A stretch of 64,000 bases of DNA from a virus: IMG/VR virus record IMGVR_UViG_3300035070_003385, positions 1 to 64,000 of that record; one strand, 5' to 3'. The notes below the pieces were generated by a model. The model had not been told where the DNA came from. It was given only the letters and a program-made list of their open reading frames with translations, and ran no database searches. This document shows, in pieces, positions 7,479 through 59,885 of this stretch (its first letter is position 1; every line of letters begins with the position of its first letter). The translations under genes and the position numbers were made by a program.

Positions 7479-7506
7479 TCATAAAATCCTTGGTAAGTCT
7501 TTAGAC

Positions 7507-7514
7507 TATTTATA
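7507..7514 (-). promoter_or_regulatory. Late promoter TATAAATA overlapping a stop codon
   Basis: GTA TAA ATA G on the minus strand. Confidence 0.7.
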
Positions 7515-8589: not shown

Positions 8590-8593
8590 TTTG

Positions 8594-9679: not shown

Positions 9680-9682
9680 GAG

Positions 9683-46386: not shown

Positions 46387-47054
46387 TATTCACCTTTTTC
46401 ATATGTTGATTTTGTATCAATGCCAACATAATAAGATACATCAGCTCCTTTAAAATATGAAATTCCTTTAGCGCACAAAGTTATTTCATAATCCTGAGGT
46501 AGCAATTTGAGATTGTCGGTTTTAATGATAATAGTAAACTTATCATTTGTTGTGCCAATTTCAATACCATATGCATCGGCTGTTGGATTTTTACTATCAA
46601 TTGCTCGAAGAAAACATTTCCCATCTTCGCCAACAAACGCAATTTCCTCAAACTGTAAAACTCCAGCTGCTTTTAATACGGATTGGAAATCATCCCATAT
46701 AACATTTACCTTTACATCCTCAGAAGGAATAGATAATTCTTTTTCTGGTGGGGCAATAACCATAGATGGATCTGCATAGACGTATTTTGTTTTTTTCTTA
46801 TTTCCTTCAGAAATAGTAAAAAATTTATCGTTAAATTGAATATCCGGATCTTGGTGAAGGCTTAAAATTGAAAGGAATCTTGAAAGATCATAAACAACAG
46901 CTTGAGATGGAATTTCGTCTTCAAGATTTGCGATTGCGATTAAGGTTTTTTCGGGTGTTACAGTTTTCAATACATTGCCTGGCTTCATAATAATTGATTT
47001 ATTAATTGTTGCAAAGCTTTTGAGAATAGTTAAAGTACGGTCAGATAGTTTCAT
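46386..47054 (-). CDS. gp45: Sliding clamp gp45
   Basis: MKLSDRTLTILKSFATINKSI...YDLSRFLS...YADPS; start at 47054 with AGGAG SD. Confidence 0.95.
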   Translation of the reverse strand: MKLSDRTLTILKSFATINKSIIMKPGNVLKTVTPEKTLIAIANLEDEIPSQAVVYDLSRFLSILSLHQDPDIQFNDKFFTISEGNKKKTKYVYADPSMVIAPPEKELSIPSEDVKVNVIWDDFQSVLKAAGVLQFEEIAFVGEDGKCFLRAIDSKNPTADAYGIEIGTTNDKFTIIIKTDNLKLLPQDYEITLCAKGISYFKGADVSYYVGIDTKSTYEKGE

Positions 47055-47085
47055 TATATAGTTTCTCCTGGTTGTCATTAATATA

Positions 47086-47119: not shown

Positions 47120-47995
47120 TTATGGTCTAAAAGCTCGTTTTGTTTTTTTATAATTTTTAGGGTTAGAACTTTTTGAAGCTGTAGGAGTCATACCCAATGT
47201 GCTTACGGCACCTAAAGATCCTTTAAATATATAACTTCCTACATGTTGCAATTCCATCCATGGACACATATGCAATTTGATTCCAATTTTTGTAGCATTC
47301 CTACAAAAGAAATAATCTTCTGATAAATATCTTTTTGAATTTGGGTCTATTTCGCAATCAAAAAAAGCTGTAATTTCGTGAGTTCCGTCAAAGTTTTTTG
47401 TTCTTACATGGTCTGGAATATATTTAAGTTCTGGATATGCTTCTGAGTATTTTTCCAATACTTCACGTGGTATTAACATAAATCCTGTTCCTGCTTCGCT
47501 TACTGCAACAGGTTCGTTTATTTTAAATGATTTTACACCTTCCGCCATATTAAAAACGTAATCGCCAGCATAATAGTCAAGGTCAAACGGATTTTCATCA
47601 GCCTTTCCTAACTCAACTGCAGTCTTAATTTTTTCCCATGCAATAGTCTTTTTAGGATATGGCCCTGTCATAATATCGTAGTTTTCTGGTTGCATTGTTT
47701 GAATTCCTAATAACGTTAATACGTCATTAGCTTTAAATCCAATATCTGAATCAATAAACATCAAGTGGGTGCAATCCGAGCGAAGAAATTCATCTGCTAC
47801 GTAATTTCTTGCACGCTGAACTAAGCTTTCATTAAACAAATAATAAAACTTAAGCTCAATTCCGTATTTTGCACACATTGCCGAAAGATCGTTAGTCGAT
47901 TTACAAAACGACCCTGCGCATTGACCACCGTACATTGGTGCTCCAATAAATAATTTGTATTTTTGCAAATGTTCTGTTGTAATTTGGATATCCAT
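47120..47995 (-). CDS. GT-A fold glycosyltransferase-like protein
   Basis: LFIGAPMYGG, LVQRARN, THLMFIDSDIGF (DxD), LSEDYFFC, ELQHVG. Confidence 0.8.
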   Translation of the reverse strand: MDIQITTEHLQKYKLFIGAPMYGGQCAGSFCKSTNDLSAMCAKYGIELKFYYLFNESLVQRARNYVADEFLRSDCTHLMFIDSDIGFKANDVLTLLGIQTMQPENYDIMTGPYPKKTIAWEKIKTAVELGKADENPFDLDYYAGDYVFNMAEGVKSFKINEPVAVSEAGTGFMLIPREVLEKYSEAYPELKYIPDHVRTKNFDGTHEITAFFDCEIDPNSKRYLSEDYFFCRNATKIGIKLHMCPWMELQHVGSYIFKGSLGAVSTLGMTPTASKSSNPKNYKKTKRAFRP

Positions 47996-48005
47996 AATAT
48001 ATTCC

Positions 48006-48632
48006 TTAAAGTAATTCTAAATCGTTTTCTGCACGATGTATTTGTTGAAATCTAATTACGTCAGCAAGAATATCCCAGGCACTATCGTGTTTTTTAAAGT
48101 TTTTATTCCAAGTATTTTCATCGATCATTGGAATAAAACCGTTTTGTTTTGGGAAGTTTAGCTTTGCATCAATATAAGTACGAGTATCGCGAACTTTCCA
48201 ATATTTAAGGTATTCCTCGAGATGAAGCAATTTATCTTCAGCTTCAAAAATACGAGAAAGAATGATTGGGTCAAACGTATTAGAACGGCTCCACCAATAA
48301 TCTATTTTTGGAGAATCAATTAAAAACTCATGAAAGCTTTTTACGAATTCTTTAACTGTTAGATCTGATTTTTTCGGAGAAACATTTGCACGGACCTCAG
48401 GATCTTGCTCTTCCCAAAATTGCAAAGTACTTTTATCAATTTCCCACCCATAGTTTTTAACCTGGTCAGCAACCGAAAGCTTAAACTTTTTTGTTTCGGT
48501 TATACTATTAAGTGTATATGGATTTGACAAAAAGCGATCCATATTAAATACCATTACAGAACAATCTACGATAGCGCACTTTGATGCGTCCTTACCCATA
48601 GTTTCAAAATCAATAATAAAGTGATTACTCAT
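48006..48632 (-). CDS. dexA: 3'-5' exonuclease, DexA-like (DEDD)
   Basis: HFIIDFETMG, WWSRSNTFD, YWKVRDTRT, HDSAWDILAD. Confidence 0.8.
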   Translation of the reverse strand: MSNHFIIDFETMGKDASKCAIVDCSVMVFNMDRFLSNPYTLNSITETKKFKLSVADQVKNYGWEIDKSTLQFWEEQDPEVRANVSPKKSDLTVKEFVKSFHEFLIDSPKIDYWWSRSNTFDPIILSRIFEAEDKLLHLEEYLKYWKVRDTRTYIDAKLNFPKQNGFIPMIDENTWNKNFKKHDSAWDILADVIRFQQIHRAENDLELL

Positions 48633-49843
48633 GCAAAGAATTCCTCCAATGTTGCCATATCAGTTTTCCCGAGCGGATCGTTTTCCATTCTTTCATAATG
48701 ATTATTTTGGCGTAAATAATTTGTATCAGATAGTTTTAATTCTCCACGAATAAACTTACCAATTTCAGTGTGTATATCTCGAGACGTAGGTACTGGCACG
48801 TTCTGGGCAATGTGGTTCATTTTTGCGAGGCCACCAACGAGTTCAAAGTCGTCAGGAAATCCCATCATGTGCAGTGCCTCACGTATAGTTAAAGAACGAT
48901 CGTGGATAGGATGAATAGTATCGGCAAGGTTTCTACCGATTACCGCATTCATACACTCGTTGAAAACATGAGTAGAGCTGTCCCATACTCCTTTACCAGC
49001 CGCAAACTTTTTAATTGCATGATCTGATACCTTAATTCCGCGTTCGTGGCCAATGTCTTTAAACCACTCGTTTGCTTCTTCGAGTAATCCTTGGCGTTGG
49101 ATATACGTAAAGGCAGTAATGTTTTGATTGCGAATTAAAATATCCCTTGGATTTTCGTTTGTTTTGGATTTAAGAAACTGGAAGTATGGTTCATCATCGA
49201 GCTTTTGGTTAATAATTAAATCCTGCTGTAGAGTCTTTTCATCAACCTCAGTTATATAGTCCCTAAAGTTTTTACGATCTCGTTTGTACCAGGACATGAT
49301 TGGAGCTTTTTCTGATTTCCAGCCGATCGCAAAGGTACGATCGCGAGCCTGAGGAATACCGTGATACTTAGTAGAAGTTTTATATAGAGTTAAACTATAA
49401 CCTCTTTTGTTGCAAATGTCAAACAAATTGTTCGCAACTTCACGACCTTTATTTGTATATAGCGCTGGAGCATTCTCAACTACAACTGCCTTTGCTCCGA
49501 ATAAATCAAAACCGTCCTCAAATACTTTGTACATCCATTCGTTTTTTGCACAACCTGCGCCTTTTGCTTCCTCGGTCTTACCAGTATTTAATTGCGATAG
49601 CGCAGCACAAGGTGGAGTACCCGATACAACGTCAACCTTATGAATAGGTGGACCTTCGTCTAGGAGTCGATATTCCAATCCACGACCTTTTACATTATTC
49701 TGATAGTTGACATAGTGACTATCATTTGCCTGAAATCCATCGTAGGAATAGATTGCCTCTGGCGGTTTACCAAAAGCCTTTTCCGCTCCTAGCATTTGGC
49801 CACCGATAAGTGGTATATGTGATGCCCATGTAATATTGCTCAT
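48629..49843 (-). CDS. C5-cytosine methyltransferase-like enzyme with degenerate SAM-binding motifs and a clamp-binding-like C-terminal tail
   Basis: Motif IV GTPPC, motif VI ENAP and motif VIII PQARDRTF are intact; LTIREALHMMGFPDDF present; motif I reads HIPLIGG and motif X reads AQNV; ends ATLEEFFA. Confidence 0.85.
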   Translation of the reverse strand: MSNITWASHIPLIGGQMLGAEKAFGKPPEAIYSYDGFQANDSHYVNYQNNVKGRGLEYRLLDEGPPIHKVDVVSGTPPCAALSQLNTGKTEEAKGAGCAKNEWMYKVFEDGFDLFGAKAVVVENAPALYTNKGREVANNLFDICNKRGYSLTLYKTSTKYHGIPQARDRTFAIGWKSEKAPIMSWYKRDRKNFRDYITEVDEKTLQQDLIINQKLDDEPYFQFLKSKTNENPRDILIRNQNITAFTYIQRQGLLEEANEWFKDIGHERGIKVSDHAIKKFAAGKGVWDSSTHVFNECMNAVIGRNLADTIHPIHDRSLTIREALHMMGFPDDFELVGGLAKMNHIAQNVPVPTSRDIHTEIGKFIRGELKLSDTNYLRQNNHYERMENDPLGKTDMATLEEFFA

Positions 49844-49855
49844 TATTCTTATTCC

Positions 49856-51100
49856 TTATGCAAAAAAGTCTTCAAGTGTAGCTACAGTTTTCTTTTTATA
49901 CTTGCTAGTATCCGGGCGGGTATAACTTGGATCCACTGAGGACATAATCTTGTTGTTTATAAATGTACCGTCGTAATATTCTGGTTTAAGAATTGCTTTA
50001 CGCAAATTGGTAAGTACTTGTTCATACCGCTCTTTATTTTCAATAAGAGTCTGCATGCGTTCGTAAAACTCGGATGGAGTCTGTGGACGAAGAAACATCG
50101 GAATGGGCAGATGCCCTTGAGTATCATATGAAGGATGTAAAAAAGGAATTACACCTGCATGTATCATTTCAATATACTTAGATGTAGTCCAACCTTCTTT
50201 AATCGGAATGATGAAGGTAAACTTTACATCTTGTAACTTATTCTGCAGTTCACTAAGATGAAGGGATCCTTTGAAACGGCTGTCATCTCCAATTACATCT
50301 GACCATTTACCATATACTTCTACTTCATTAAACTTATTCAGGACCCATTCCTTGAGTAAGTTATAACGAGATGGTTTACCTTCGTTGAGAACGACCATAA
50401 AGTTTGTATTGCGATCTGTGTTTACTTGTTCACTATATTCATAATCACCACAGAACGCGGTTTCCATACCAGCATATTCTGATTTCACGATACGAGTAAT
50501 ACGTTCCTGGTCTTCGTAGTTACGAATAGCAAACGTCTCATATTCATAATCATACTGACCGAGAGATTTCATCGGCATATGGAATAAATCACGCGGTTGT
50601 TTTATCGTATAGCGAGGATCATTTACGATTTCAACGTAAGGTGGCTTTTCTTCATTCAGCCACGCGATAATTGGAGTCGTGTACCACTTGGACATATCAA
50701 GAGTTGCGGCAGGTTTTCCGTCGTTCCCTTCTCTTACCTTTTGAATACGATTTGGAATAGTTACGTTACTCATTTGACCAATCATCATAATTGTAAAGTC
50801 GAGTGTAATATTTTTTTCCTTAAAGTAGGTAATGATATGATTAAAATAAGCTTCTGACATAGACAATGGAATCCCTTGCCATATATCAATCACGTTATCA
50901 TATGTAAATAATTTGGTTTTTTCGGCATCAGATAGAGTAGCATAATCAGAACGACCTATGATATAAAAATTTTTATCCGGATTGTTATTTGCTACAGCGC
51001 GTAGAGTACACGATGCTTCGTTGTCTCCACCGATTGGAGAATACTTGTTTGTTCTAAATTTAATAGATTTGCCTACTTTTGCAAAGCCAATGTTTTTCAT
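49856..51100 (-). CDS. DNA glycosyltransferase, T4 beta-glucosyltransferase (GT-B)-like
   Basis: By-eye block matches to T4 BGT: MKNIGFAKVGKSIKF, EIVNDPRY, VEVYGK, FKGSLHLSELQNKLQDVKFTFII, TSKYIEMIHAGVIPFLHPSYDT; ends ATLEDFFA. Confidence 0.75.
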   Translation of the reverse strand: MKNIGFAKVGKSIKFRTNKYSPIGGDNEASCTLRAVANNNPDKNFYIIGRSDYATLSDAEKTKLFTYDNVIDIWQGIPLSMSEAYFNHIITYFKEKNITLDFTIMMIGQMSNVTIPNRIQKVREGNDGKPAATLDMSKWYTTPIIAWLNEEKPPYVEIVNDPRYTIKQPRDLFHMPMKSLGQYDYEYETFAIRNYEDQERITRIVKSEYAGMETAFCGDYEYSEQVNTDRNTNFMVVLNEGKPSRYNLLKEWVLNKFNEVEVYGKWSDVIGDDSRFKGSLHLSELQNKLQDVKFTFIIPIKEGWTTSKYIEMIHAGVIPFLHPSYDTQGHLPIPMFLRPQTPSEFYERMQTLIENKERYEQVLTNLRKAILKPEYYDGTFINNKIMSSVDPSYTRPDTSKYKKKTVATLEDFFA

Positions 51101-51101
51101 T

Positions 51102-51464
51102 TTAATCCCATTCTATAAATTTGACAAAGTCTTGCGGTAGCATTGCTTTGTCATCAACATAATAAATGCCGTATGGTTTACCCCATACTATTTCGTCGTA
51201 TGGTACCTCGTGCTTTTCCAACCAATCAGTTGTAATTTTTCCGACATCATCGATGATTTTATTTATATCGCCGTCATGAGTTACCATCCTACGAGCAGTA
51301 TGAATAACTATCCTATAGCCTTTTTCTTTTGCCTTTTTTAAACTATTAATCATTTCTTTTTTGGGACTTGCCATTCCATACTTTTTATGGCTATCTTTTC
51401 TTCCGTGAATTGGAATGCAGATAGTATCGTCAAGATCCATTACTATTGTTTGTTGCGTATTCAT
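51102..51464 (-). CDS. HAD-superfamily phosphatase (capsule-biosynthesis phosphatase-like)
   Basis: DLDDTIC motif I, IHTAR motif II, GKP...YYVDDKA. Confidence 0.88.
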   Translation of the reverse strand: MNTQQTIVMDLDDTICIPIHGRKDSHKKYGMASPKKEMINSLKKAKEKGYRIVIHTARRMVTHDGDINKIIDDVGKITTDWLEKHEVPYDEIVWGKPYGIYYVDDKAMLPQDFVKFIEWD

Positions 51465-52920
51465 TCACATAATCTCTCATTCGTTTTTGCCTATCAGTAC
51501 AGTCATAATGCAGTTTAATACAAGTAGCAATAAGCAACGCACCGCCGTCAATAATTTCATTATACTCTGCTTTATAGTATTTGTCAACTAGTTTTTCAAA
51601 ACTTTTTGCAACATACTCTGGATATTTATGCCCGGTCACTAGTTCATTATAACCGTGGTAAAGATCGTGTGATAGTTTGCACATATCGTATAAGTGATCT
51701 CCACCACATCCTATATGATCACCATAAGAGCCTCGAGGGTCTAACAATGTAATACTGTCGTTGTATGGATTATATAATATGTTTGCGAAATGCAAGTCTC
51801 CATGCATAGCTGCAACTGGTTTTGCTTTTTCGAGACAACGTTTTGCCAAATCATTATAATAATCTTCAGAACATTCTAAACGTTCTGCTGTTTTATCAAC
51901 CCACATTTTTTTAGCATTATTTTGAAAGTCAACTGCAAACTTAAGTGTTGGTTGTTTATGAAAATGATTTTGCATTGCAATAATTACTTTTTCAATCAAA
52001 TAATCTATGGTGCTGTTTGATATATCTTCGTGTGCAAATAAATCAGACAATAAAACACCTGACTCATATGACATTGATAAAGCATAATCATCTTTAAGCA
52101 TCTTAGGAATAAACATACTTTGAACTGAATCGAGCGATTCGTACCAATTCTTTTCGTTCATTATGGTTCGTACCGCAAAGGTATTATTGTGAGATGGGAT
52201 TTTTGTAATAACGTTAATATCTGATTTGTATTCAAAAGAATTAAATTCACGTGCTTTGAATGTAAGGAACTCAGCGCAAGTTTTATGATATGACGCAATG
52301 TCTCCAATATCATACCAACGCTCAGTGCTTATATTATTAAACTTGACATTATATCCATACAATTCAAGCGCGTCGGATATATCATACTCTTTTGTATTAA
52401 TAAATGACTGCGCAGCTTTAAACCCATCAGCAAAACTATATAAACCTACGAGTGCTACCGCATCTCTAACAGTTTCTTTAGGTTTATTATAATACTGATT
52501 TCCATCCCACATACACCATGCAGAGTGATCTTCAACTTTTTTAGTTAAAAGAAAGTCTTCACCCAATGGCATGTTTTCTTCAAGGATAATAGCATCGCCT
52601 AACCAAACTACAAGAGGATTTGCAAAATCTAACAAAGATTGACATCCAACCGCTATAGCATCACGGGGACCGTTTAACGATCCCTGCTTTACACATTCAA
52701 TATTATTATATTTGCTTTTAGATGCCCATTCACGTATATCATTATGCTTGCCATCAACAATAATAATTTTACCTACATCAGGGGTGTTTTTATAAATGGA
52801 CTCAATGATATATTCAATTGTAGGCTTTCCGTGAACTCTGACCATAGCCTTTGAGCAATTTGATGTTAAAGGCCGAAGTCGAGTTGCTTCACCTGCTGCT
52901 GGTATTACTACATTGATCAT
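51430..52920 (-). CDS. Sugar-phosphate nucleotidyltransferase fused to an APH/choline-kinase-like phosphotransferase
   Basis: N-terminal VVIPAAGEATRLRPLT...KAMV and WYDIG; C-terminal MHGDLHFANIL...LLDPRG. Start set to the ATG at 52920 (GGAG SD). Confidence 0.88.
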   Translation of the reverse strand: MINVVIPAAGEATRLRPLTSNCSKAMVRVHGKPTIEYIIESIYKNTPDVGKIIIVDGKHNDIREWASKSKYNNIECVKQGSLNGPRDAIAVGCQSLLDFANPLVVWLGDAIILEENMPLGEDFLLTKKVEDHSAWCMWDGNQYYNKPKETVRDAVALVGLYSFADGFKAAQSFINTKEYDISDALELYGYNVKFNNISTERWYDIGDIASYHKTCAEFLTFKAREFNSFEYKSDINVITKIPSHNNTFAVRTIMNEKNWYESLDSVQSMFIPKMLKDDYALSMSYESGVLLSDLFAHEDISNSTIDYLIEKVIIAMQNHFHKQPTLKFAVDFQNNAKKMWVDKTAERLECSEDYYNDLAKRCLEKAKPVAAMHGDLHFANILYNPYNDSITLLDPRGSYGDHIGCGGDHLYDMCKLSHDLYHGYNELVTGHKYPEYVAKSFEKLVDKYYKAEYNEIIDGGALLIATCIKLHYDCTDRQKRMRDYVNEYATNNSNGS

Positions 52921-53557
52921 ACTGTTCTCTCCATGCATCGTATTCATCTTCAAGATTAACCCACTGCATTTTTGTATATTGCGTTTTCGTAGAAAATCGT
53001 CTATCCCATATTATCCACATATAGGCAATCATCCCTCCTATTTGATCCTTCTTTTCAATAGGTTCAACAAGGCCAGAATTAAATTTAGCGCGATCTGATA
53101 AAAATATTATATCACTTGGTGGGTTATTTGTAAATAGTTTTTTTCTCTTTTTTCCTTCAAGAAACGTTAAGCGAAGAAACATTGCAGTATAACTGTATTC
53201 ATCAATCCACTTTTCAGCCAACTTACGAGGCAGGTCCTTATGATACGGTGGATTAGTTACTACACCTTCGGCAAAGTCTTGCTTTGGAGTCTCAAGAGCG
53301 TCGTGTGATGTATTTATGCTACATAGAGAGTCTTCGTATTCGTGTAGGTCATGACTTAAAACATTATGACCATTTCGAGCAAGTTCAACAGAAATGTTAC
53401 CCTTTCCTGCGCAGGGTTCAAAAATGTTTTGCGGTGGTCTATTATATTTGCATAACACGTGGGTAGCGAGCGGAGGAGTTGGGTAGAAATCGTTTTTCTT
53501 ACGATTTGGGTCGTTCTTTTTTACGCCAACGTATATATCGCTAAGACTACTTGCCAT
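52889..53557 (-). CDS. N6-adenine (or N4-cytosine) DNA methyltransferase
   Basis: DFYPTP, FEPCAGKG and TNPPY motifs. Confidence 0.85.
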   Translation of the reverse strand: MASSLSDIYVGVKKNDPNRKKNDFYPTPPLATHVLCKYNRPPQNIFEPCAGKGNISVELARNGHNVLSHDLHEYEDSLCSINTSHDALETPKQDFAEGVVTNPPYHKDLPRKLAEKWIDEYSYTAMFLRLTFLEGKKRKKLFTNNPPSDIIFLSDRAKFNSGLVEPIEKKDQIGGMIAYMWIIWDRRFSTKTQYTKMQWVNLEDEYDAWREQYDQCSNTSSR

Positions 53558-53560
53558 TAA

Positions 53561-54070
53561 TTAAACCTCCAAAACAGTAACTTGCACGCCGCTTTCTTTA
53601 AACATTGGCAAACTTTGTTGTTCCCATACTTCTTGCCAATTACCTTTATCAGTTTTATCTGTTGGTATTACTACACGTTTGACACCAGCTTGAATGACGC
53701 ACTTAGAACATGAAGGGCAAACTGGCAATCCATAAACGTACAAAGTTGCATCTTTAAGACTTACACCTGAATACAAAGCATTCATAAGAGCATTCATTTC
53801 AGCATGAACAATACGTGGATATTTTTCATCTTTATTATTCAGACGTTCTTCAGTATCAGCAATACCTTTTGGAAAACCATTATAACCAGTAGCAAGAATA
53901 CGGCGTTCATCATTTACAGCCACTGCGCCAATTTTACTTGAAGGATCTTTGCTCCAAGTAGAAATCATTTTAGCCATATCCATAAAACGGTTATCCCATT
54001 TTAGTTCTTTTTCGTCTTGTTCTTTATGCATTCTTCGTATACTTTCCTCATAAAATTCATATTCAGCCAT
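53561..54070 (-). CDS. cd: dCMP deaminase
   Basis: WSKDPSSKIGAV, GYNGFP, HAEMNA, PVCPSCSK. Confidence 0.93.
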   Translation of the reverse strand: MAEYEFYEESIRRMHKEQDEKELKWDNRFMDMAKMISTWSKDPSSKIGAVAVNDERRILATGYNGFPKGIADTEERLNNKDEKYPRIVHAEMNALMNALYSGVSLKDATLYVYGLPVCPSCSKCVIQAGVKRVVIPTDKTDKGNWQEVWEQQSLPMFKESGVQVTVLEV

Positions 54071-54172
54071 TAGGTGTTCTCCTTAATCCAAACGCATTCA
54101 CTAACTTTTTTATGCCACAAAGTATTCGGATTCATCAAAGACCCGGAATCCTTCCGCACCATCTAGTACTCA

Positions 54173-54286
54173 TTACTTCTCTCCTATGTAGCTATTTTCT
54201 ATTAGTTCGACAACGCCGGGCGCCACCATAAACAAAAACAAAGACAGTGAAAAAAAGAACATCGCCGCAATTAAATTACCGTTCAT
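54173..54286 (-). CDS. Small membrane peptide (37 aa; not in ORF track)
   Basis: MNGNLIAAMFFFSLSLFLFMVAPGVVELIENSYIGEK*; GGAG SD and ATGA overlap. Confidence 0.65.
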   Translation of the reverse strand: MNGNLIAAMFFFSLSLFLFMVAPGVVELIENSYIGEK

Positions 54287-54483
54287 TTTGTCTCTCCTTT
54301 AATGGACGCATCTGTCACTTTCATCTCGTCCATAAATTCATACATTTCTGCGTTGGTGGGGCAATTTTGATAGTAGCTCCGAACGTTATATCGTGCCAGT
54401 TCACATATACTGTCCAAGTCTAGAGATTCAACATACCGTTGTACTGCTAGATCCAGTTTAGCTTGTGTTTTACTGTCCATCAT
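54283..54483 (-). CDS. Hypothetical protein
   Basis: Coupled small ORF in the early gene array. Confidence 0.7.
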   Translation of the reverse strand: MMDSKTQAKLDLAVQRYVESLDLDSICELARYNVRSYYQNCPTNAEMYEFMDEMKVTDASIKGETK

Positions 54484-54724
54484 GAGTGTATCCTTTGCAT
54501 TTTTGACGAGTCTTCAGTTGAGGATTACCATCTTTATTGATCACCATATGGTATTCGATATCATCTTCAAAACGAGTTACAATACGCTCTAAGCTCTGAC
54601 GTTGAAAAATTGCTTCGCACAGGGGAAGCAATTTTTGCTGTATATTATAAACCTTTTCCAATTCATTTAGCGTGTCAATTTCTTCACGCATAGCGTCTAA
54701 CAGTTTCGCTAGATCATCACTCAT
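54470..54724 (-). CDS. Hypothetical protein (MSDDL family start)
   Basis: TAATG-coupled ORF. Confidence 0.7.
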   Translation of the reverse strand: MSDDLAKLLDAMREEIDTLNELEKVYNIQQKLLPLCEAIFQRQSLERIVTRFEDDIEYHMVINKDGNPQLKTRQKCKGYTHDGQ

Positions 54725-55053
54725 TACTCTTTTCCTTTAAGTTCTGCGAGGGCAGCGCGGGCAATCATGTTGCCATCGCTGTTGCCGTAAAGGTCGCCGT
54801 TACCCAGCCGTGCCAGCTTCTCTAAAGACTCCACCGCCTGCGCCAGCTTGGTCTCAAGTTCTTCGATTCGGTAAAACTTTAAAGCCGTCACCGCCTTTTC
54901 CAGCTTGGCTTCAAGTTCTTCAATCCGCTCCGCTGCTGTGTCTAGAAGGTTCTCGCTGTCGTATAATACGGGCCAGGACATTTCGTAAAAAACATTTGAT
55001 TTATTTCTCAACCGCTTCACTATATTTGAGTTATTTCTTAGATCATCACTCAT
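54724..55053 (-). CDS. Hypothetical coiled-coil protein (MSDDL...RIEELEAKL...AELKG)
   Basis: Internal tandem duplication RIEELEAKL/RIEELETKL. Confidence 0.75.
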   Translation of the reverse strand: MSDDLRNNSNIVKRLRNKSNVFYEMSWPVLYDSENLLDTAAERIEELEAKLEKAVTALKFYRIEELETKLAQAVESLEKLARLGNGDLYGNSDGNMIARAALAELKGKE

Positions 55054-55469
55054 TACTTATCTCCTTTGAGTTCTGCGACCCTGTTGCGTCGTTCCTGCCA
55101 CCAGTTATCGTAGCTTTCTGATCGCCAGAAATACCCGCATTCATCAAGAGCCATTTCTAACGCCTCTTCCAGCTTGGCCTCAAGTTCTTTGATCCTGTCT
55201 GCCGCTTCATAACACAAAGCATCTGTTTTGAATTCGCTTATGACTCCAGATACACCTGCTGCGGGTGAGGCTACAAAGACCGTACCATCACGCAGCCGTT
55301 TTACTAATTCGTTCTTTGGCTCGTGCGTCCAACTATACCTTCCGTCAACGTGTGTGCAATCGTTACACAGAGGCTGGCCGCAAGTAAAGCCAGCTATATC
55401 CACATCACACCTCCCATTAGTCACACATCCGCATCCACTGCATTTCTTTAGACCGTCACCCATTATCAA
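55053..55469 (-). CDS. Cys-rich N-terminal domain fused to a RIKELEAKL coiled-coil block
   Basis: CSGCGC...CGQPLCNDC; LVKRLR; ends AELKGDK. Confidence 0.75.
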   Translation of the reverse strand: MIMGDGLKKCSGCGCVTNGRCDVDIAGFTCGQPLCNDCTHVDGRYSWTHEPKNELVKRLRDGTVFVASPAAGVSGVISEFKTDALCYEAADRIKELEAKLEEALEMALDECGYFWRSESYDNWWQERRNRVAELKGDK

Positions 55470-55708
55470 TACCTTCTTTGTCTGTGAAGTTTATCTCTTA
55501 CTCTATTAGTATACACGTTATTGTTATTCTTGTCAACCAGCTCCAATAACAAATCAAGGTCATCGTCATCTAGTTTGTCATCCCATCCCATAACCTCTTT
55601 GAGAGATTTTTTCTGTACATAATATCCACGAGCTTTAAGTTCGCGTACAATCTCTTCGTCACCGAACTCGTCCAAATCTACGTCTACTTCAACTGTTACA
55701 TATGTCAT
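55466..55708 (-). CDS. Hypothetical acidic protein
   Basis: Coupled ORF. Confidence 0.7.
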   Translation of the reverse strand: MTYVTVEVDVDLDEFGDEEIVRELKARGYYVQKKSLKEVMGWDDKLDDDDLDLLLELVDKNNNNVYTNRVRDKLHRQRRY

Positions 55709-56218
55709 TTATGTATCCTTATACTCTAAGCTAGTCCAGTACTTCCCTGCGATCTGACCATGAACATTACCAAAGACATTACCTAAGACACTACCTTTGA
55801 CAGTACCTCCGACACTGCCTCCGATGCTGCCTACAACATCGCCTTTGACATTGTAATAGACGTGACCTCCGACATCTCCACAGACATTGCCTACAACATC
55901 GCCTTTGACATTGTTATGGACATCACCTCCGACACTGCCTCCGACATAACCTCCGATATCACCATAGACATCACCCAAGACATTACCTTCGACATTGCCT
56001 TCGACATTACCTTCGACATTACCATAGACATTACCATAGACATTACCCAAGACATTACCTTCAACATAGCCTTTGACATTGCCTTTCACAGTACCTACAA
56101 CATCGCCTTCGACATTACCTAAGACATTCTTAATAAACAAAACTCCGTCTTCGTTCTCATTGAATGTAATAAGCTTTGCGAGTTGATCTAGTTGGCTTTG
56201 AGTTAAATTAGTTTTCAT
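55709..56218 (-). CDS. GxVx tetrapeptide-repeat (beta-solenoid) protein
   Basis: About 30 consecutive G-[NDTYSH]-V-x units; ATGA overlap at 56218. Confidence 0.8.
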   Translation of the reverse strand: MKTNLTQSQLDQLAKLITFNENEDGVLFIKNVLGNVEGDVVGTVKGNVKGYVEGNVLGNVYGNVYGNVEGNVEGNVEGNVLGDVYGDIGGYVGGSVGGDVHNNVKGDVVGNVCGDVGGHVYYNVKGDVVGSIGGSVGGTVKGSVLGNVFGNVHGQIAGKYWTSLEYKDT

Positions 56219-56385
56219 GTGCAACTACCTTCTATTAAGGTTTTACCTGCGTTGATACAAGCCATTTTTAATTCGTGTTCCAATCGCCGTTCTAGGTTCA
56301 TGTCCATGTATCGGCCAAGGCCGGGCAACACTAAAGCCGAAGCAAAAATAGCGATAAATGCCAGGGTGATTAAATCATTTTTCAT
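56215..56385 (-). CDS. Small membrane-anchored protein
   Basis: N-terminal hydrophobic helix; GGAGA SD; first gene after the promoter at 56433. Confidence 0.7.
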   Translation of the reverse strand: MKNDLITLAFIAIFASALVLPGLGRYMDMNLERRLEHELKMACINAGKTLIEGSCT

Positions 56386-56432
56386 TTTGTTTCTCCACAC
56401 ATCACAGATTCTTCCTTTGATGTAACTAATAT

Positions 56433-56461
56433 ATTATAACACCAGTTGTTGAGTTTGTCAA
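56433..56461 (-). promoter_or_regulatory. Early sigma70-type promoter (perfect consensus)
   Basis: TTGACA-N17-TATAAT. Confidence 0.88.
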
Positions 56462-56464
56462 CCC

Positions 56465-57109
56465 CTAATCCCACAAATTTTCGTAATATTTACCAAATAG
56501 TTTCAGTCCATTTGATATACGTTTCTGGTGTGCTTTTCTTCCCTTAGGATCTTCCCATACTAATTTGTAACCACCCAGAAATCCATCACCGGCGCCCTCT
56601 TCAAACTTATAATAATCAGATTCCCAATCATCAAGACACTTTTGCTCAAAGGCCCATATCATTTCATCAAGTACATAGTCCCAACGTTTAAAATAGTTAT
56701 TATCAGGCAACCATCCATTCTCTTTGGGCGGAGCTGATGTGGATTTCAATTCCTTTGGTACATCCTTATCATCAACAGATGGTGCACCATGTTTAGTTTC
56801 TTTTAATTGTTTTAACATAGGCAGAATAATCAAAGAAAGAGTGTCATCCACTGACCACGTATCATAGCTATCAATACGGATTTTTACTCTACGTTGCTTA
56901 CGATCTAAATATAGATTAATGGTATGGTTATAGATCCATTGCAGAGTATCTTCTAGATTGCGAAGAAATGCTTCTTTAAATGGTTCAACCTTATTGTTTA
57001 AACCTTTTTGTCCGTACTCAGGCCAATAATGACCATAATGCTTAATCATATAATTGGTATATACGCTGCTTGTCCAACGATATACGTATGGTCCAATATT
57101 AACTTTCAT
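56465..57109 (-). CDS. Conserved phage hypothetical protein
   Basis: Start moved to MKVNIGPY (ATGA overlap); DTWSVDDTL...WDYVLDEMIWAF...GLKLFGKYYENLWD. Confidence 0.8.
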   Translation of the reverse strand: MKVNIGPYVYRWTSSVYTNYMIKHYGHYWPEYGQKGLNNKVEPFKEAFLRNLEDTLQWIYNHTINLYLDRKQRRVKIRIDSYDTWSVDDTLSLIILPMLKQLKETKHGAPSVDDKDVPKELKSTSAPPKENGWLPDNNYFKRWDYVLDEMIWAFEQKCLDDWESDYYKFEEGAGDGFLGGYKLVWEDPKGRKAHQKRISNGLKLFGKYYENLWD

Positions 57110-57300
57110 CCCCAGTCCTCCAATGTGCTTTTCAGTCCTTTTAAAACATGTTCCAACTTTTCCGCATCTAATGTACGACAAGATGTGATCTGATTTGGAC
57201 GGAACGTTCTGCCTTCATCAGTTTCTTCTGTGCGGTCAAGCAATACAAATAGTTCTTTTACCAGAACATCATACTGTTGTGCTTTACTTGTTAGGCTCAT
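57106..57300 (-). CDS. Hypothetical protein
   Basis: Start moved to MSLTSKAQQY with AAGGA SD. Confidence 0.7.
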   Translation of the reverse strand: MSLTSKAQQYDVLVKELFVLLDRTEETDEGRTFRPNQITSCRTLDAEKLEHVLKGLKSTLEDWG

Positions 57301-57314
57301 GTTTCTTTCCTTAC

Positions 57315-57563
57315 TTAGAAAGTTGCTTTGAATTGTATTGGGCAGTCTTGTGAAGGGCAAACATATCCCATTGGGCCATTCCATTTCATGCCGCATTTAC
57401 GACAAGTGGTTAGCGCAAAGTAGGTTGGATCATGATCGGAGGGTGGCGGTTTATACGGTGATGGCTGAATAGGAACATCTTTTCTCAACAAATATTTAAT
57501 GATCCACTCAAGGTCACGTTCAATCTTATCTAATCTTCGGATATATTCGTCTTTATCGCTCAT
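57315..57563 (-). CDS. Hypothetical protein with a C-terminal Zn-ribbon-like motif
   Basis: CRKCG...CPSQDC. Confidence 0.7.
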   Translation of the reverse strand: MSDKDEYIRRLDKIERDLEWIIKYLLRKDVPIQPSPYKPPPSDHDPTYFALTTCRKCGMKWNGPMGYVCPSQDCPIQFKATF

Positions 57564-57835
57564 TTCATATCCAATCCTTCTTCACAACTACAAGTATAAT
57601 ATTCTACAGTGTCTTCGGGATACCACACAATACATTCTTTAGCCACCCACTCAGTATATGGGATCAAACCTAAGAACTTGTTACGCACTTTTTGATATTC
57701 ATATGTGACACCCAAGCGAGTTACACTTTTACACTCTGGTAACAAATCCACCGGTTCGTATTCCAACCATTCAGCTGGGCAGAATTTGCTGGCATAAACT
57801 TTTTTATAGGCTTGTGCTTTACTTGTTTTACTCAT
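57560..57835 (-). CDS. Hypothetical protein
   Basis: Coupled ORF. Confidence 0.7.
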   Translation of the reverse strand: MSKTSKAQAYKKVYASKFCPAEWLEYEPVDLLPECKSVTRLGVTYEYQKVRNKFLGLIPYTEWVAKECIVWYPEDTVEYYTCSCEEGLDMK

Positions 57836-57980
57836 TTGTTTTCACCTCTAGCCATTCACGACAGATTTTAATATAATGATCTCTCTGCCACTTAACTTTC
57901 TCATGTGACAGTTCAGGACGATCAATAGCAATATATTGTATCAACTGTTCAGCAGTCAATGCTTTTGTATATGCGCTCAT
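57828..57980 (-). CDS. Hypothetical protein (50 aa; not in ORF track)
   Basis: MSAYTKALTAEQLIQYIAIDRPELSHEKVKWQRDHYIKICREWLEVKTNE*; TAATG coupling. Confidence 0.7.
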   Translation of the reverse strand: MSAYTKALTAEQLIQYIAIDRPELSHEKVKWQRDHYIKICREWLEVKTNE

Positions 57981-58159
57981 TACGGATTCTCTTTAATCCA
58001 AACACATTCTGAAATATCTTCAGGCGTGTCGTACATACGCTTACACTGTTCATAAGGATGACTCCAACTACCTAGTGATGTTCCGATACCAAGTGCTATA
58101 CCTATCCAAAAAAACTGCTTAAACCCTTGTTTGAAGTCACGCCAAAATGTTTTAATCAT
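57980..58159 (-). CDS. Small membrane protein (59 aa; not in ORF track)
   Basis: MIKTFWRDFKQGFKQFFWIGIALGIGTSLGSWSHPYEQCKRMYDTPEDISECVWIKENP*. Confidence 0.7.
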   Translation of the reverse strand: MIKTFWRDFKQGFKQFFWIGIALGIGTSLGSWSHPYEQCKRMYDTPEDISECVWIKENP

Positions 58160-58404
58160 TTTTCTTTCCTTACTTTAGTCCAAGGGGTTGACCACGTCAT
58201 ACACGCCCACCATAAACACAGTGATACATGAGGTCCATCATAATACATATATTCATATCCAATAAAGCGATTCTCTTTCTTTTCAATCCGGTCAAACCAA
58301 TAGAAGTAATAGAAGTAATGATCAGTTCCGAGTGTTTTCTCAGACTGCCACCATTCAATGCCATTCCATTTGAGTTTGAACTTCCAAGGATACTGTTTCA
58401 TCAT
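58156..58404 (-). CDS. Aromatic-rich hypothetical protein
   Basis: GGAG SD; W/Y/F-rich. Confidence 0.65.
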   Translation of the reverse strand: MMKQYPWKFKLKWNGIEWWQSEKTLGTDHYFYYFYWFDRIEKKENRFIGYEYMYYDGPHVSLCLWWACMTWSTPWTKVRKEK

Positions 58405-58423
58405 TTTTCTCCGTAATCAACAG

Positions 58424-59095
58424 TTATTTTACAAGATTAAAGTGGCGTTCGTAAACATGTAGGTTCATTACCTGCCAAGTAAGATCACCTTTTGTGATTT
58501 CATATCCTGCTTGATGCAAATCACTAACAGCACGATCCATAAGATGTTGAGCCCAAGCATAATCGTTCTTGTAACCAAAGACTACATCATTTGATCGCAT
58601 TTGAGATACCATATGCAACTTACCATCACGGATATAGAATGTTTGTGCATTGGTACAGATGAAATCAGACTTGCCACCTTCGTTGAATTCAACCCAGATT
58701 GATGGGCGATTGTAAATCATTTGAGCACGACGGCTATCTGGATTTGCAATCAGCTCATCAATTGCGTTATAATATTGATTATAAAACTTTGGCGAATTAA
58801 CTAGGTGGCCATAGTTCGAATTAATATTACCATGTGTATCTGCTGCGTATTTCCAAGCTGCAGGTGGTTCTTTACCTGCACCATGAATATCATAAATGTT
58901 AATAGATCCGCTTTCATACCAAGCCAACTCAGCATCAATATATTCCTGTTTTGGAGTACCAAAGATTGAAGGCTCGTCGGCAATAAAACTTGCACCTAGA
59001 ATTTCAATAGTTTTCTGACCAGTTTTATCGGTCGTAAACCGTTCTGCCTTGAGTTCTTCAATAAAATAGTTACGAATATCATTTACTTTTTGCAT
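58424..59095 (-). CDS. gp42: dCMP hydroxymethyltransferase (T4 gp42-like)
   Basis: Colinear with T4 gp42: DKTGQKTIEILGASFIADEP, ELAWY, INSNYG, NPDSRRA, DFICTN, MRSNDVVFGYKNDYAW (cytosine-specifying Asp), LHVYERHF. Confidence 0.92.
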   Translation of the reverse strand: MQKVNDIRNYFIEELKAERFTTDKTGQKTIEILGASFIADEPSIFGTPKQEYIDAELAWYESGSINIYDIHGAGKEPPAAWKYAADTHGNINSNYGHLVNSPKFYNQYYNAIDELIANPDSRRAQMIYNRPSIWVEFNEGGKSDFICTNAQTFYIRDGKLHMVSQMRSNDVVFGYKNDYAWAQHLMDRAVSDLHQAGYEITKGDLTWQVMNLHVYERHFNLVK

Positions 59096-59580
59096 TATGC
59101 GTATTCCTTATAGTTAGAAAAGCTGTACTTTGTAATCTCATTATACAACTTATCGCTACGAATGTCAACAATTTTTGTAAATGTTTCTAATGGAAAAAGT
59201 GCAACCAACCTTCCATCGTGTTGATTTACAATAAATTCAAAATCGCGTTTTCCTAACGGCGCAGCTTCCCATAGGGTAACCGCGCTATCTTTGCCAGGAT
59301 TTTGAACTACGATAAGTCGTTCTACATTCATACATTTGTTGAGTTGGTTTTTTGTGATCCTACCGTTTCGCGTATTATATACAGGTATGGAAAAAGAATT
59401 AAATTTATGATATAGAGTCTCGAACTTTACTTCTGTTCGAACTCCATTGATAAACATATCTTTTTCTTGATCGTATGGATCTGTCGACATTTCAACCGTA
59501 TCGCCTTGCATCGTGAAATAGTCAGACACAACCGTTTCGGCAATGTCACCAAGAATTTTTTGTGATTTGGCTCTATTCAT
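59095..59580 (-). CDS. PD-(D/E)XK-type nuclease-like protein
   Basis: GDIAETVV...DQEKDMF...TEVKFE motif. Confidence 0.6.
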   Translation of the reverse strand: MNRAKSQKILGDIAETVVSDYFTMQGDTVEMSTDPYDQEKDMFINGVRTEVKFETLYHKFNSFSIPVYNTRNGRITKNQLNKCMNVERLIVVQNPGKDSAVTLWEAAPLGKRDFEFIVNQHDGRLVALFPLETFTKIVDIRSDKLYNEITKYSFSNYKEYA

Positions 59581-59885
59581 TTTTTAAACCTATCATCGGT
59601 AGATGGATCGCCTTCGATCGTAGTCATTACAAGGATCATCATTTGCGTAAGAGCATGCGACAAGTGTGGTAAACCGGACTCAGGGTCTTCATCTTCACCT
59701 GACATATATGCCATAAGATGTCGTTGAATAGACGAATAATGCCGAGAGACAGGAAATTTGTCAATGTCCTGCCGCCAATTGTTTTCACCATACTTTTTTG
59801 CGCCAAAGCCAAAGACCCGAGCAGCTTCAATGATAGCCTCAGGTGGTACTAAGTGGATCTTTGGTTTACCTTCGTCATACTTCAT
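59577..59885 (-). CDS. DUF5664 / dATP-dGTP diphosphohydrolase-family nucleotide pyrophosphatase
   Basis: KYDEGKP...GAKKYGENNW...RHL...DPESGLPHLSHA. Confidence 0.88.
   Translation of the reverse strand: MKYDEGKPKIHLVPPEAIIEAARVFGFGAKKYGENNWRQDIDKFPVSRHYSSIQRHLMAYMSGEDEDPESGLPHLSHALTQMMILVMTTIEGDPSTDDRFKK

What the first reader, a model, noticed from the sequence alone, without database searches (positions are those of the whole stretch)
47120..59885. Candidate new cytosine-hypermodification system: hmC synthesis, BGT-like transferase and a self-made sugar nucleotide
Seen: a T4 gp42-like dCMP hydroxymethylase (58424-59095) with the cytosine-specifying Asp, and one co-transcribed block. That block encodes a BGT-like GT-B glycosyltransferase, a nucleotidyltransferase-kinase fusion, a HAD phosphatase, a C5-MTase-like enzyme, a DexA-like exonuclease and a GT-A glycosyltransferase. 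Established: T4 glucosylates hmC using host UDP-glucose and needs no sugar pathway. A kinase + phosphatase + nucleotidyltransferase set is the logic used to make unusual NDP-sugars, as in ADP/GDP-heptose pathways. Inference: this phage makes its own non-glucose NDP-sugar and attaches it to hmC, possibly extending it with the GT-A enzyme. The product would be a base modification distinct from T4 glucosyl-hmC.
Basis: partly seen in the sequence, partly recalled or inferred. Interest (0 to 1): 0.88.

Follow-up and report, generated by a model that had tools for sequence, protein, structure and literature searches.

The report
Phage sugar-hydroxymethylcytosine DNA modification block
An uncultured marine T4-like phage carries genes that should replace cytosine with hydroxymethylcytosine and then attach a sugar the phage activates itself; the design is already published for sister gene sets, but this version's sugar and a conserved methylase-like partner enzyme remain unexplained.

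Summary
The block encodes a true T4 gp42-type dCMP hydroxymethylase. It also encodes a sugar-1-phosphate nucleotidyltransferase fused to a kinase, a small HAD phosphatase, and a GT-B whose closest solved structure is T4 beta-glucosyltransferase. A C5-methyltransferase-like enzyme, a 3'-5' exonuclease and a GT-A complete the list.

The reading (self-made NDP-sugar put on hmC) is well supported, but it is not a new kind of system.
- The fusion and the HAD are homologues of the RB69/HY126 AfhE/AfhF pair, which makes UDP-arabinose.
- Sister marine phages fill the same slot with a HAD-kinase fusion plus an ADP-heptose-type transferase. That is the "contig 53" gene set that Pyle et al. showed makes heptosyl-5hmC.

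This window is therefore a new variant: gp42 plus an AfhE/F-like kit plus a BGT-like transferase. The sugar is unknown; heptose or a pentose is most likely.

Two points add interest. The GT-B and the methylase-like enzyme both end in the DNA polymerase's own C-terminal clamp-binding-like peptide. The methylase-like enzyme has a conserved but atypical cofactor motif and follows the GT-B in 70 of 71 related loci.

The GT-A is not tied to hmC. This scan has met the same cassette before in other genomes.

The parts
59577..59885 (-). DUF5664 / MazG-like nucleotide pyrophosphohydrolase next to gp42. It is a candidate stand-in for a dCTPase (inferred).
   Evidence: PF18909 E 1.7e-29; phrog_801. It lies beside gp42 in related loci at 86-98% identity. 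No T4 gp56 homologue was found by tblastn.
58424..59095 (-). gp42-type dCMP hydroxymethylase, which makes 5-hydroxymethyl-dCMP.
   Evidence: PDB 1b49 E 2e-64. It is 47-53% identical to gp42 of hmC phages but 26-28% identical to the 5hoC-synthase lineage. The signature RSND...ND and DFIC is kept in all relatives.
53561..54070 (-). dCMP deaminase (T4 cd-like).
   Evidence: PF00383 E 2.5e-21; phrog_174 E 7e-49. Present in 34 of 34 related loci with enough flank.
52889..53557 (-). N6-adenine DNA methyltransferase-like protein. It is probably a separate modification.
   Evidence: phrog_799 E 5e-42. The motifs DFYPTPP and TNPPY were read directly. It is absent from some related loci.
51430..52953 (-). 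Bifunctional sugar-1-phosphate nucleotidyltransferase and sugar kinase (AfhE-like). The probable true start is 52920.
   Evidence: PF00483 E 4e-14; PDB profile hits to LicC, GalU, RmlA and MurU; invariant HGDLHxGN...D kinase loop. hhalign to JS98 orf42 (RB69 orf052c-like) gives probability 98.6, E 1e-15 over 394 columns.
51102..51464 (-). HAD-IIIA type sugar-phosphate phosphatase (AfhF-like).
   Evidence: TIGR01689 E 2.6e-24. 29% identity, E 2e-12 to JS98 orf41 (RB69 orf051c-like). 47% identity to the Enterococcus phage Planchet homologue.
49856..51100 (-). GT-B glycosyltransferase, structurally closest to T4 beta-glucosyltransferase. It is the predicted hmC-DNA glycosyltransferase. Its C-terminal tail ATLEDFFA lies at 49856-49882.
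   Evidence: AF2 pLDDT 87.7. T4 BGT 1c3j Z 20.9, T4 AGT Z 17.6, HY126 GT Z 16.1. The tail is shared with gp43 and conserved in 80 of 82 homologues.
48629..49843 (-). C5-cytosine-methyltransferase-like enzyme with an atypical motif I, of unexplained role. Its C-terminal tail ATLEEFFA lies at 48629-48655.
   Evidence: PF00145 E 1.4e-20. Motifs PPC, ENA and QxRxR are kept, while motif I reads IPLIGG and is near-invariant in the family. It follows the GT-B in 70 of 71 loci. The tail is conserved in 69 of 70 homologues.
48006..48632 (-). DEDD 3'-5' exonuclease (DexA / Rv2179c-like). It is probably nucleotide salvage rather than part of the modification chemistry.
   Evidence: PF16473 E 6e-19; phrog_255 E 1e-33. 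Present in 60 of 62 loci. It is not homologous to Planchet's RNase H-like gene.
47120..47995 (-). GT-A glycosyltransferase with a DxD motif. Its target is unknown and it is not demonstrably part of the hmC system.
   Evidence: AF2 pLDDT 73. Mimivirus R699 Z 15.9, STIV A197 Z 15.6, ColGalT1 Z 15.1. Asp82 and Asp84 are invariant. A homologue lies beside gp45 in Cr30, where no gp42 was found. It has no clamp-like tail.
46386..47078 (-). gp45 sliding clamp, the proposed docking partner of the two tailed enzymes.
   Evidence: phrog_223 E 6.5e-68.

Best explanation
This is a cytosine hypermodification system of the pre-replicative (thymidylate-synthase-type) kind.

1. gp42 converts dCMP to 5-hydroxymethyl-dCMP, which is incorporated into phage DNA. 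This is inferred from strong homology and from diagnostic residues.
2. A phage-encoded three-activity sugar kit makes an NDP-sugar from a host sugar phosphate. By analogy with AfhE/AfhF, the kinase domain phosphorylates C1 of a terminally phosphorylated sugar. The HAD then removes the terminal phosphate, and the nucleotidyltransferase domain forms the NDP-sugar.
3. The BGT-like GT-B transfers that sugar to the hydroxymethyl group of hmC in DNA. It is probably tethered to the gp45 sliding clamp through a C-terminal peptide that copies the polymerase's own tail.

The sugar is not established. My estimates are heptose about 45%, a pentose such as arabinose about 30%, and other sugars (including glucose) about 25%. 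The C5-methyltransferase-like enzyme is a conserved, probably clamp-tethered partner whose reaction is unknown. The GT-A and the exonuclease are neighbours with no demonstrated link to the system.
For: - gp42 identity and residues. The Asp169 versus Asn169 diagnostic comes from Lee et al. 2026.
- GT-B fold, with T4 BGT as best match.
- Homology of the fusion and the HAD to the AfhE/AfhF-type genes of JS98/RB69. Their biochemistry is summarised.
- Kinase catalytic loop. Nucleotidyltransferase domain.
- Conserved order gp42 - deaminase - kit - GT-B - C5MT in marine relatives: gp42 in 23 of 23 loci, HAD in 37 of 37, C5MT in 70 of 71.
- The same core (Asp177 TS homologue + HAD + fusion + GT-B) occurs in cultured Pseudoalteromonas phage XG4 and in Enterococcus phage Planchet.
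- Experimental precedent: a HAD-APH fusion, a cytidylyltransferase and a betaGT-like GT-B are jointly required for heptosyl- and diheptosyl-5hmC. Sister loci carry that gene set in the same slot.
- Clamp tail: only gp43, the GT-B and the C5MT among 493 ORFs end in the motif, against 0.025 expected from shuffles. gp43 identity. The tail is conserved in the families. T4 alpha-GT binds gp45.
- For heptose: kit-A and kit-B GT-Bs differ by only 9 conservative fixed residues, none between residues 238 and 370.
Against: - No chemistry was measured; everything rests on homology and context.
- tblastn found no homologue of T4 gp56 dCTPase or gp1 dNMP kinase, so complete replacement of C is not assured.
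- The GT-B has no detectable sequence similarity to T4 BGT or to the JS98 arabinosyltransferase. Acceptor and donor are therefore inferred from fold and context only.
- No arabinose-5-P isomerase or GmhA-type isomerase was found in the phage record, so the precursor must come from the host.
- It could not be tested whether contig 53's GT belongs to this GT-B family, because no sequences are available.
- XG4 and Planchet lack the clamp-like tails.
Confidence: 0.72

Rival explanations
1. The kit simply boosts supply of an ordinary donor, UDP-glucose made from glucose-6-P via glucose-1,6-bisphosphate. The product would then be T4-like glucosyl-hmC and the system chemically ordinary.
For: The nucleotidyltransferase domain hits GalU/UDP-glucose pyrophosphorylases among its best PDB and NCBIfam matches. 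T4 BGT, a glucosyltransferase, is the closest structure. No dedicated sugar isomerase is encoded.
Against: The closest characterised homologues of the whole fusion and of the HAD make UDP-arabinose. The sister kit is ADP-heptose-like, and its published counterpart gave heptose rather than hexose in E. coli, where UDP-glucose is abundant.
Confidence: 0.1
2. The GT-B and the sugar kit act on a non-DNA target (host LPS, capsule, teichoic acid or a protein), for example for superinfection exclusion. Their position near gp42 would then be coincidental.
For: GT-B and GT-A folds are generic. Many structural neighbours are LPS or cell-wall enzymes. Pyle et al. note that most GT-containing contigs lack a nearby base-modification gene.
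Against: gp42 lies within about 8 kb in 23 of 23 loci. The GT-B carries the polymerase's C-terminal peptide. The T4 DNA glucosyltransferases BGT and AGT rank first and fourth. The core also co-occurs with an Asp177 TS homologue in unrelated Enterococcus phages.
Confidence: 0.05
3. The C5-methyltransferase-like enzyme is an ordinary SAM-dependent DNA cytosine methylase. It rides the clamp and methylates cytosines that escaped hmC replacement, acting as a back-up shield.
For: The Pfam match is above the cut-off, and the catalytic Cys, ENx and QxRxR motifs are intact. No gp56 or gp1 homologue was found, so replacement may be incomplete. Eukaryotic DNMT1 is likewise clamp-tethered (my own knowledge).
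Against: Motif I reads IPLIGG instead of FxGxG, and this is near-invariant across the family, including XG4 and S-TIM5. The family co-occurs with cytosine-directed TS homologues in three lineages, where free C5 positions should be scarce.
Confidence: 0.45
4. The GT-A (47120-47995) adds a second sugar to the first, giving a disaccharide on hmC.
For: It has a GT-A fold with DxD and lies in the same strand-packed block in 52 of 52 loci. Phage GT-A enzymes that extend hmC glycans are known.
Against: Homologues lie beside gp45 in Cr30, where the search found no gp42-type enzyme, and also occur in cyanophages and a Pelagibacter podophage. It has no clamp-like tail. Planchet's extra GT is unrelated. 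In contig 53 the GT-B alone gave both mono- and di-heptose.
Confidence: 0.2

Closest known systems
'Contig 53' subclass III cluster of Pyle, Lund, O'Toole and Saleh (bioRxiv 10.1101/2023.12.21.572611): HAD-APH bifunctional enzyme + cytidylyltransferase + T4-betaGT-like GT-B, giving mono- and di-heptosyl-5hmC
   Same: The logic is the same: kinase + HAD phosphatase + nucleotidyltransferase feeding a betaGT-like GT-B that acts on 5hmC in DNA. Sister loci of this phage (L073 type) carry this gene set in the same slot, with GT-Bs 61-63% identical to this one.
   Different: Here the kinase is fused to a GalU/RmlA/LicC-type nucleotidyltransferase and the HAD stands alone. The two kinase domains are barely related, and the nucleotidyltransferases belong to different superfamilies. 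In this phage hmC comes from gp42, whereas the reconstitution used a methylase plus TET. The product of this variant is unknown.
Arabinosyl-5-hydroxycytosine system of RB69, DLP3 and HY126 (Afh genes; Lee et al. 2026 NAR, PMC13326640)
   Same: The nucleotidyltransferase-kinase fusion and the small HAD are homologues of AfhE/AfhF-type genes. The genes lie in the replication-gene region between gp43 and gp45, and a GT-B acts on DNA.
   Different: The base precursor differs. Here it comes from a folate-type hydroxymethylase (Asp169), not a flavin 5-hydroxylase (Asn169). No arabinose-5-P isomerase was detected. The GT-B is unrelated in sequence to the arabinosyltransferase. An extra C5-methylase-like partner is present.
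Phage T4 glucosyl-hmC system (gp42, gp56, gp1, cd, alpha-GT, beta-GT)
   Same: gp42 is 50% identical and a dCMP deaminase is present. A BGT-like transferase lies downstream of gp42, as in T4. There is a precedent for a DNA glucosyltransferase binding gp45 (alpha-GT).
   Different: T4 uses host UDP-glucose and has no sugar kit. No gp56 or gp1 homologue is detectable here. The GT-B is not a sequence-level member of the BGT family. In T4 the clamp binder is alpha-GT, not beta-GT.

Membership tests
T4-type dCMP hydroxymethylase (gp42) | High similarity to T4 gp42 across the whole thymidylate-synthase fold | tested here: met
   PDB 1b49 E 2e-64; 50% identity over 221 residues.
T4-type dCMP hydroxymethylase (gp42) | Asp at ThyA-177 (cytosine specificity), an acidic residue at 143, and Asp (not Asn) at 169, which separates hydroxymethylases from 5hoC synthases | tested here: met
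   RSNDVVFGYKND and DFICTN, identical in pattern to T4.
T4 hmC replacement pathway | dCTPase gp56 and dNMP kinase gp1 present | tested here: inconclusive
   No tblastn match at E below 1 in the 182.7 kb record. A DUF5664 pyrophosphohydrolase next to gp42 may substitute. BLAST would miss distant analogues.
T4 beta-glucosyltransferase family (GT63, PF09198) | Sequence-level membership | tested here: not met
   No Pfam hit; hhalign probability 2.6% against T4 BGT. The genome-wide PF09198 search was uninformative because its controls were silent.
T4 beta-glucosyltransferase family (GT63, PF09198) | GT-B fold closest to BGT | tested here: met
   1c3j Z 20.9, rmsd 3.6, 307 of 333 residues, 2.4 Z above the next entry. 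Foldseek TM 0.62-0.69 normalised to BGT.
Afh/RB69 arabinosyl-5hoC system | AfhE-like nucleotidyltransferase-kinase fusion and AfhF-like HAD | tested here: met
   hhalign probability 98.6, E 1e-15; HAD E 2e-12.
Afh/RB69 arabinosyl-5hoC system | 5hoC synthase (Asn169), arabinose-5-P isomerase, GT4-like arabinosyltransferase | tested here: not met
   Asp169. No SIS domain was found, with all 14 controls positive. No similarity to the JS98 arabinosyltransferase.
Contig-53-type heptosyl-5hmC cluster | HAD-APH fusion plus CTP_transf_like (RfaE domain II-like) nucleotidyltransferase | tested here: not met
   In this window the HAD stands alone and the transferase is PF00483. The defining pair is present in sister loci such as L073.
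Contig-53-type heptosyl-5hmC cluster | GT-B of the same family as GT53; heptose product | not testable with these tools
C5 DNA cytosine methyltransferase (PF00145) | Catalytic motifs IV (PC), VI (ENV) and VIII (QxRxR) | tested here: met
   GTPPC, ENA and QaRdR; Pfam 74 bits against a cut-off of 22.
C5 DNA cytosine methyltransferase (PF00145) | SAM-binding motif I, FxGxG | tested here: not met
   It reads IPLIGG and is near-invariant in 39 distinct homologues, including XG4. S-TIM5 has IIPLVGG. Whether SAM still binds cannot be tested here.
gp45 clamp-binding proteins of T4-like phages | C-terminal peptide like that of the phage's own gp43 | tested here: met
   gp43 ends TLESFFV, the GT-B ends TLEDFFA and the C5MT ends TLEEFFA. 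These are the only 3 of 493 ORFs with the motif; shuffles give 0.025. T4 gp43 ends SLDFLFG. Physical binding is not testable here.
GT-A glycosyltransferases | GT-A fold with a DxD motif | tested here: met
   Z 15.9, 15.6 and 15.1 to GT-A enzymes; invariant Asp82 and Asp84.

The most novel reading that the evidence does not exclude
The C5-methyltransferase-like enzyme is not a methylase. It would be a clamp-tethered enzyme that uses the covalent Cys-C6 mechanism on 5-hydroxymethyl- or 5-glycosyloxymethyl-cytosine in nascent DNA. It could, for example, exchange or remove the C5 substituent, or act as a base-flipping partner for the GT-B. Together with the GT-B it would form a replication-fork-coupled hypermodification machine that yields a base not yet described.
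Probability: 0.2. Interest if true: 0.85.

Novelty: new variant of a known kind. Interest (0 to 1): 0.55.

Why it matters
Glycosylated cytosines shield phage DNA from restriction enzymes and CRISPR nucleases, and they are themselves targets of type IV restriction systems. This lineage is abundant in marine metagenomes: hundreds of clusters of the GT-B and of the methylase-like protein turn up in Tara, GOS, JGI and ENA data. Its DNA chemistry therefore bears on marine phage-host ecology and on how well such genomes sequence. The slot between the deaminase and the GT-B holds interchangeable sugar kits, which makes it a natural test bed for how donor supply and transferase co-evolve. The two polymerase-like tails suggest that hypermodification is physically coupled to replication. 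That idea has been partly tested for T4 alpha-GT but not for a beta-GT-like enzyme or for a methylase-like enzyme. The same core in Enterococcus phages of the 9183/Planchet group predicts glycosylated hmC in relatives of phages being considered for therapy.

Tried and rejected
- **Nucleotide search.** A search of the block against 50,697 phage records gave only a 2% match, to Roseobacter phage CRP-6. There is no close cultured relative.
- **Sequence searches with the GT-B.** Pfam, PHROGs, NCBIfam and PDB gave nothing. Only the fold was informative.
- **GT-A family profile against PDB.** It gave nothing, so a structure prediction was needed.
- **5hoC (RB69-type) base.** I considered it and rejected it on identity bands and on the Asp169 diagnostic.
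- **MTase plus TET route to hmC.** I considered it and found no TET/JBP domain. The control for that search rang in only one genome, so this is a weak negative.
- **Sugar isomerases.** I searched for KdsD/SIS and GmhA/SIS_2 to pin down the sugar and found none.
- **Link to contig 53.** I tried to tie GT53 to this GT-B family through peptide motifs in the paper's supplement, but no sequences are held there.
- **Experimental data on cassette-bearing cultured phages.** Two paper searches (Enterococcus phage terms, Andrewesvirinae) found no paper on their DNA chemistry. I made no literature search for XG4.
- **Group-specific GT-B residues.** These were meant to separate the sugars of kit A and kit B. 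They turned out few and conservative, which argues for a similar donor rather than a different one.

Full report
**Setting.** The window is the first 64 kb of a 182.7 kb T4-like virus record, about 91% complete. It encodes baseplate and tail genes, gp44, gp45 and, just past the window end, a family-B polymerase. No close cultured relative exists at the nucleotide level.

**Observation.**
- The thymidylate-synthase homologue at 58424-59095 is a genuine gp42. It matches the T4 dCMP hydroxymethylase structure at E 2e-64. It is 47-53% identical to gp42 of proven hmC phages but only 26-28% identical to the RB69-type enzymes.
- Lee et al. 2026 showed that RB69-type enzymes are flavin-dependent 5-hydroxylases marked by Asn at the ThyA-169 position. 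This protein and all its relatives have Asp169, Asp177 and an acidic residue at 143, as T4 does. The predicted product is therefore 5hm-dCMP, not 5ho-dCMP.
- The 414-aa protein has no sequence-level match anywhere. A confident AF2 model (pLDDT 87.7) is GT-B. T4 beta-glucosyltransferase is the best match in an unfiltered search of 48,161 chains: Z 20.9, rmsd 3.6 A, 307 of 333 residues. T4 alpha-GT scores Z 17.6 and the HY126 DNA arabinosyltransferase Z 16.1.
- The 507-aa protein is a sugar-1-phosphate nucleotidyltransferase fused to a kinase with an invariant HGDLHxGN...D catalytic loop. Its conserved start is the ATG at 52920.
- The 120-aa protein is a HAD-IIIA phosphatase of the TIGR01689 subfamily.
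- The 404-aa protein matches PF00145.
- The 208-aa protein is a DEDD exonuclease.
- The 291-aa protein is a GT-A with DxD.
- The block also contains a dCMP deaminase and an N6-adenine methylase-like gene.

**Context in relatives.** I fetched 80 IMG/VR loci that encode relatives of the GT-B. The order gp42 - deaminase - (N6-MTase) - sugar kit - GT-B - C5MT-like - exonuclease - GT-A - gp45 - gp44 is conserved among them. Counting only loci with enough flank, gp42 is present in 23 of 23, the HAD in 37 of 37, the C5MT-like gene in 70 of 71 and the GT-A in 52 of 52.

Two cultured groups share the core. Pseudoalteromonas phage XG4 has gp42, the HAD, the fusion, the GT-B and the C5MT-like gene. Enterococcus phages of the 9183/Planchet group have an Asp177 TS homologue, the HAD (47% identity), the fusion (28%) and the GT-B (30%).

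**What is already known.** Two published systems bracket this one.
- *Arabinosyl-5-hydroxycytosine pathway of RB69, DLP3 and HY126.* It uses AfhE, a bifunctional arabinose-5-P 1-kinase and UDP-arabinose pyrophosphorylase, together with AfhF, a HAD that removes the 5-phosphate. This window's fusion and HAD are homologues of the corresponding JS98/RB69 genes: hhalign probability 98.6, E 1e-15 over 394 columns including the kinase loop, and HAD E 2e-12. The base-forming enzyme, the isomerase and the transferase of that system are absent here.
It reconstituted a HAD-APH bifunctional enzyme, a cytidylyltransferase and a T4-betaGT-like GT-B, all three required for mono- and di-heptosyl-5hmC in E. 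coli.

About 20 of the 46 marine loci with enough flank carry what looks like the contig 53 gene set in the same slot. It consists of a 346-aa HAD-APH fusion, a 305-aa unknown protein and a 144-aa enzyme. The 144-aa enzyme best matches the heptose-1-phosphate adenylyltransferase domain of RfaE (E 3e-22). I call this kit B, and this window's version kit A.

**Relation of the two kits.** In a maximum-likelihood tree of the GT-Bs, the kit-B enzymes form one clade (support 100/98). That clade is nested among the kit-A enzymes, and XG4 (kit A) lies outside. This fits a single replacement of kit A by kit B; the rooting is by midpoint only. The two GT-B groups differ by just nine fixed, conservative substitutions, none between residues 238 and 370, plus a 3-residue indel in a disordered loop. 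This suggests a similar donor, so heptose is a serious candidate for kit A as well. The nucleotidyltransferase domain gives weak hits to HddC-type heptose-1-P guanylyltransferases among many others. Homology of kit A to AfhE/AfhF argues instead for a pentose. No isomerase that would decide the matter is encoded.

**Does it act on DNA?** Following a lead in earlier first-stage notes, I scanned all 493 ORFs of at least 60 aa in the genome for a C-terminal [LIMV][DE][DESQ]FF motif followed by 0-2 residues. Exactly three have it: the polymerase (TLESFFV), the GT-B (TLEDFFA) and the C5MT-like protein (TLEEFFA). Composition-preserving shuffles give 0.025.
- T4 gp43 ends SLDFLFG. From my own knowledge, this is its gp45-binding peptide.
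- The tail is kept in 80 of 82 GT-B homologues and 69 of 70 C5MT-like homologues.
- It is absent from the kit enzymes, the exonuclease and the GT-A.
- It is also absent from XG4 and Planchet.
- T4 alpha-GT, but not beta-GT, co-purifies with gp45.

This argues against an LPS or protein target and suggests modification at the replication fork.

**The unexplained part.** The C5MT-like enzyme keeps the catalytic Cys and motifs VI and VIII, but motif I reads IPLIGG. That N-terminal region is almost invariant across the family. It recurs in XG4 and, as IIPLVGG, in cyanophage S-TIM5, where the gene lies four genes from a TS homologue with Asp177. A C5 enzyme in genomes that pre-empt C5 is odd. Either replacement is partial (no gp56 or gp1 homologue was found) or the enzyme does something else. 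No TET/JBP was found, so it is not needed to make hmC.

**GT-A and exonuclease.** GT-A homologues sit beside gp45 in Cr30 and in the phiM12-group phages (phiM7, phiM12, phiN3), and also occur in cyanophages. The search found no gp42-type enzyme in Cr30. I therefore treat the GT-A as an old neighbour of the clamp gene, not as part of the hmC system.

**Verdict.** This is a new variant of a known kind: gp42-derived hmC, an AfhE/F-like sugar kit and a BGT-like, probably clamp-tethered transferase. The sugar is unknown. The conserved methylase-like partner is the most interesting open point. The scan had already met the same cassette in other genomes.

Noticed in passing
window 54282-55814: This stretch is about 89% identical at the nucleotide level to Roseobacter phage CRP-6, a podophage of a Rhodobacteraceae host. 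It lies in a locally GC-rich patch (0.43 against about 0.36). That suggests recent gene exchange and hints that the host is a roseobacter or another alphaproteobacterium. The small ORFs there have no family matches.
   Followed up: partly
L073:7602-9973 and about 20 other loci (L048-L080, L083, L084): The slot between the dCMP deaminase and the GT-B holds one of two interchangeable sugar kits. One is the AfhE/F-like kit of this window. The other is a HAD-APH fusion, a 305-aa unknown protein and an RfaE-domain-II-like adenylyltransferase. The 305-aa protein matches no Pfam or NCBIfam family.
   Followed up: partly
L003 (Enterococcus phage Planchet, OX422066.1) 5266-11794: Enterococcus siphophages of the 9183/Planchet/TJE4 group carry a nucleotide kinase, an Asp177 TS homologue, a dUTPase, the HAD, the NT-kinase fusion, the BGT-like GT-B and a further GT. 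This predicts glycosylated hmC DNA in these phages. The two paper searches I ran found no paper on it.
   Followed up: partly
L090 (cyanophage S-TIM5, NC_019516.2) 3781-8218: S-TIM5 encodes a homologue of the C5MT-like protein (31% identity, motif I IIPLVGG). Four genes away lies a 'thymidylate synthase' with Asp at the base-specifying position, so it is predicted to modify dCMP. The search found no GT-B homologue in S-TIM5.
   Followed up: partly
window 59168-59140, 56461-56433, 51587-51559, 47114-47086 (minus strand): Four perfect TTGACA-17-TATAAT sites lie on the coding strand within 15 kb. One is upstream of gp42, one lies inside the fusion gene upstream of the HAD and GT-B, and one is upstream of gp45. 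They look like T4-style early promoters, so the block may not be a single transcript.
   Followed up: no
window 59095-59580 and 59875-60390: Two unassigned proteins flank the DUF5664 gene next to gp42. The second gives a weak Eco29kI (GIY-YIG) nuclease hit (E 0.002). They may be nucleases that destroy cytosine-containing DNA, as T4 EndoII and EndoIV do, but this was not established.
   Followed up: no
genome C1:126779-127120 (outside the window): A second, distant thymidylate-synthase homologue (30% identity to gp42 over 117 residues, in a 306-aa frame), probably the phage's ordinary dTMP synthase.
   Followed up: no
window 39968-42451 (+): An 827-aa ORF on the opposite strand, in a patch with strong positive GC skew (0.28) and raised GC (0.43). 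It has no PHROG match.
   Followed up: no
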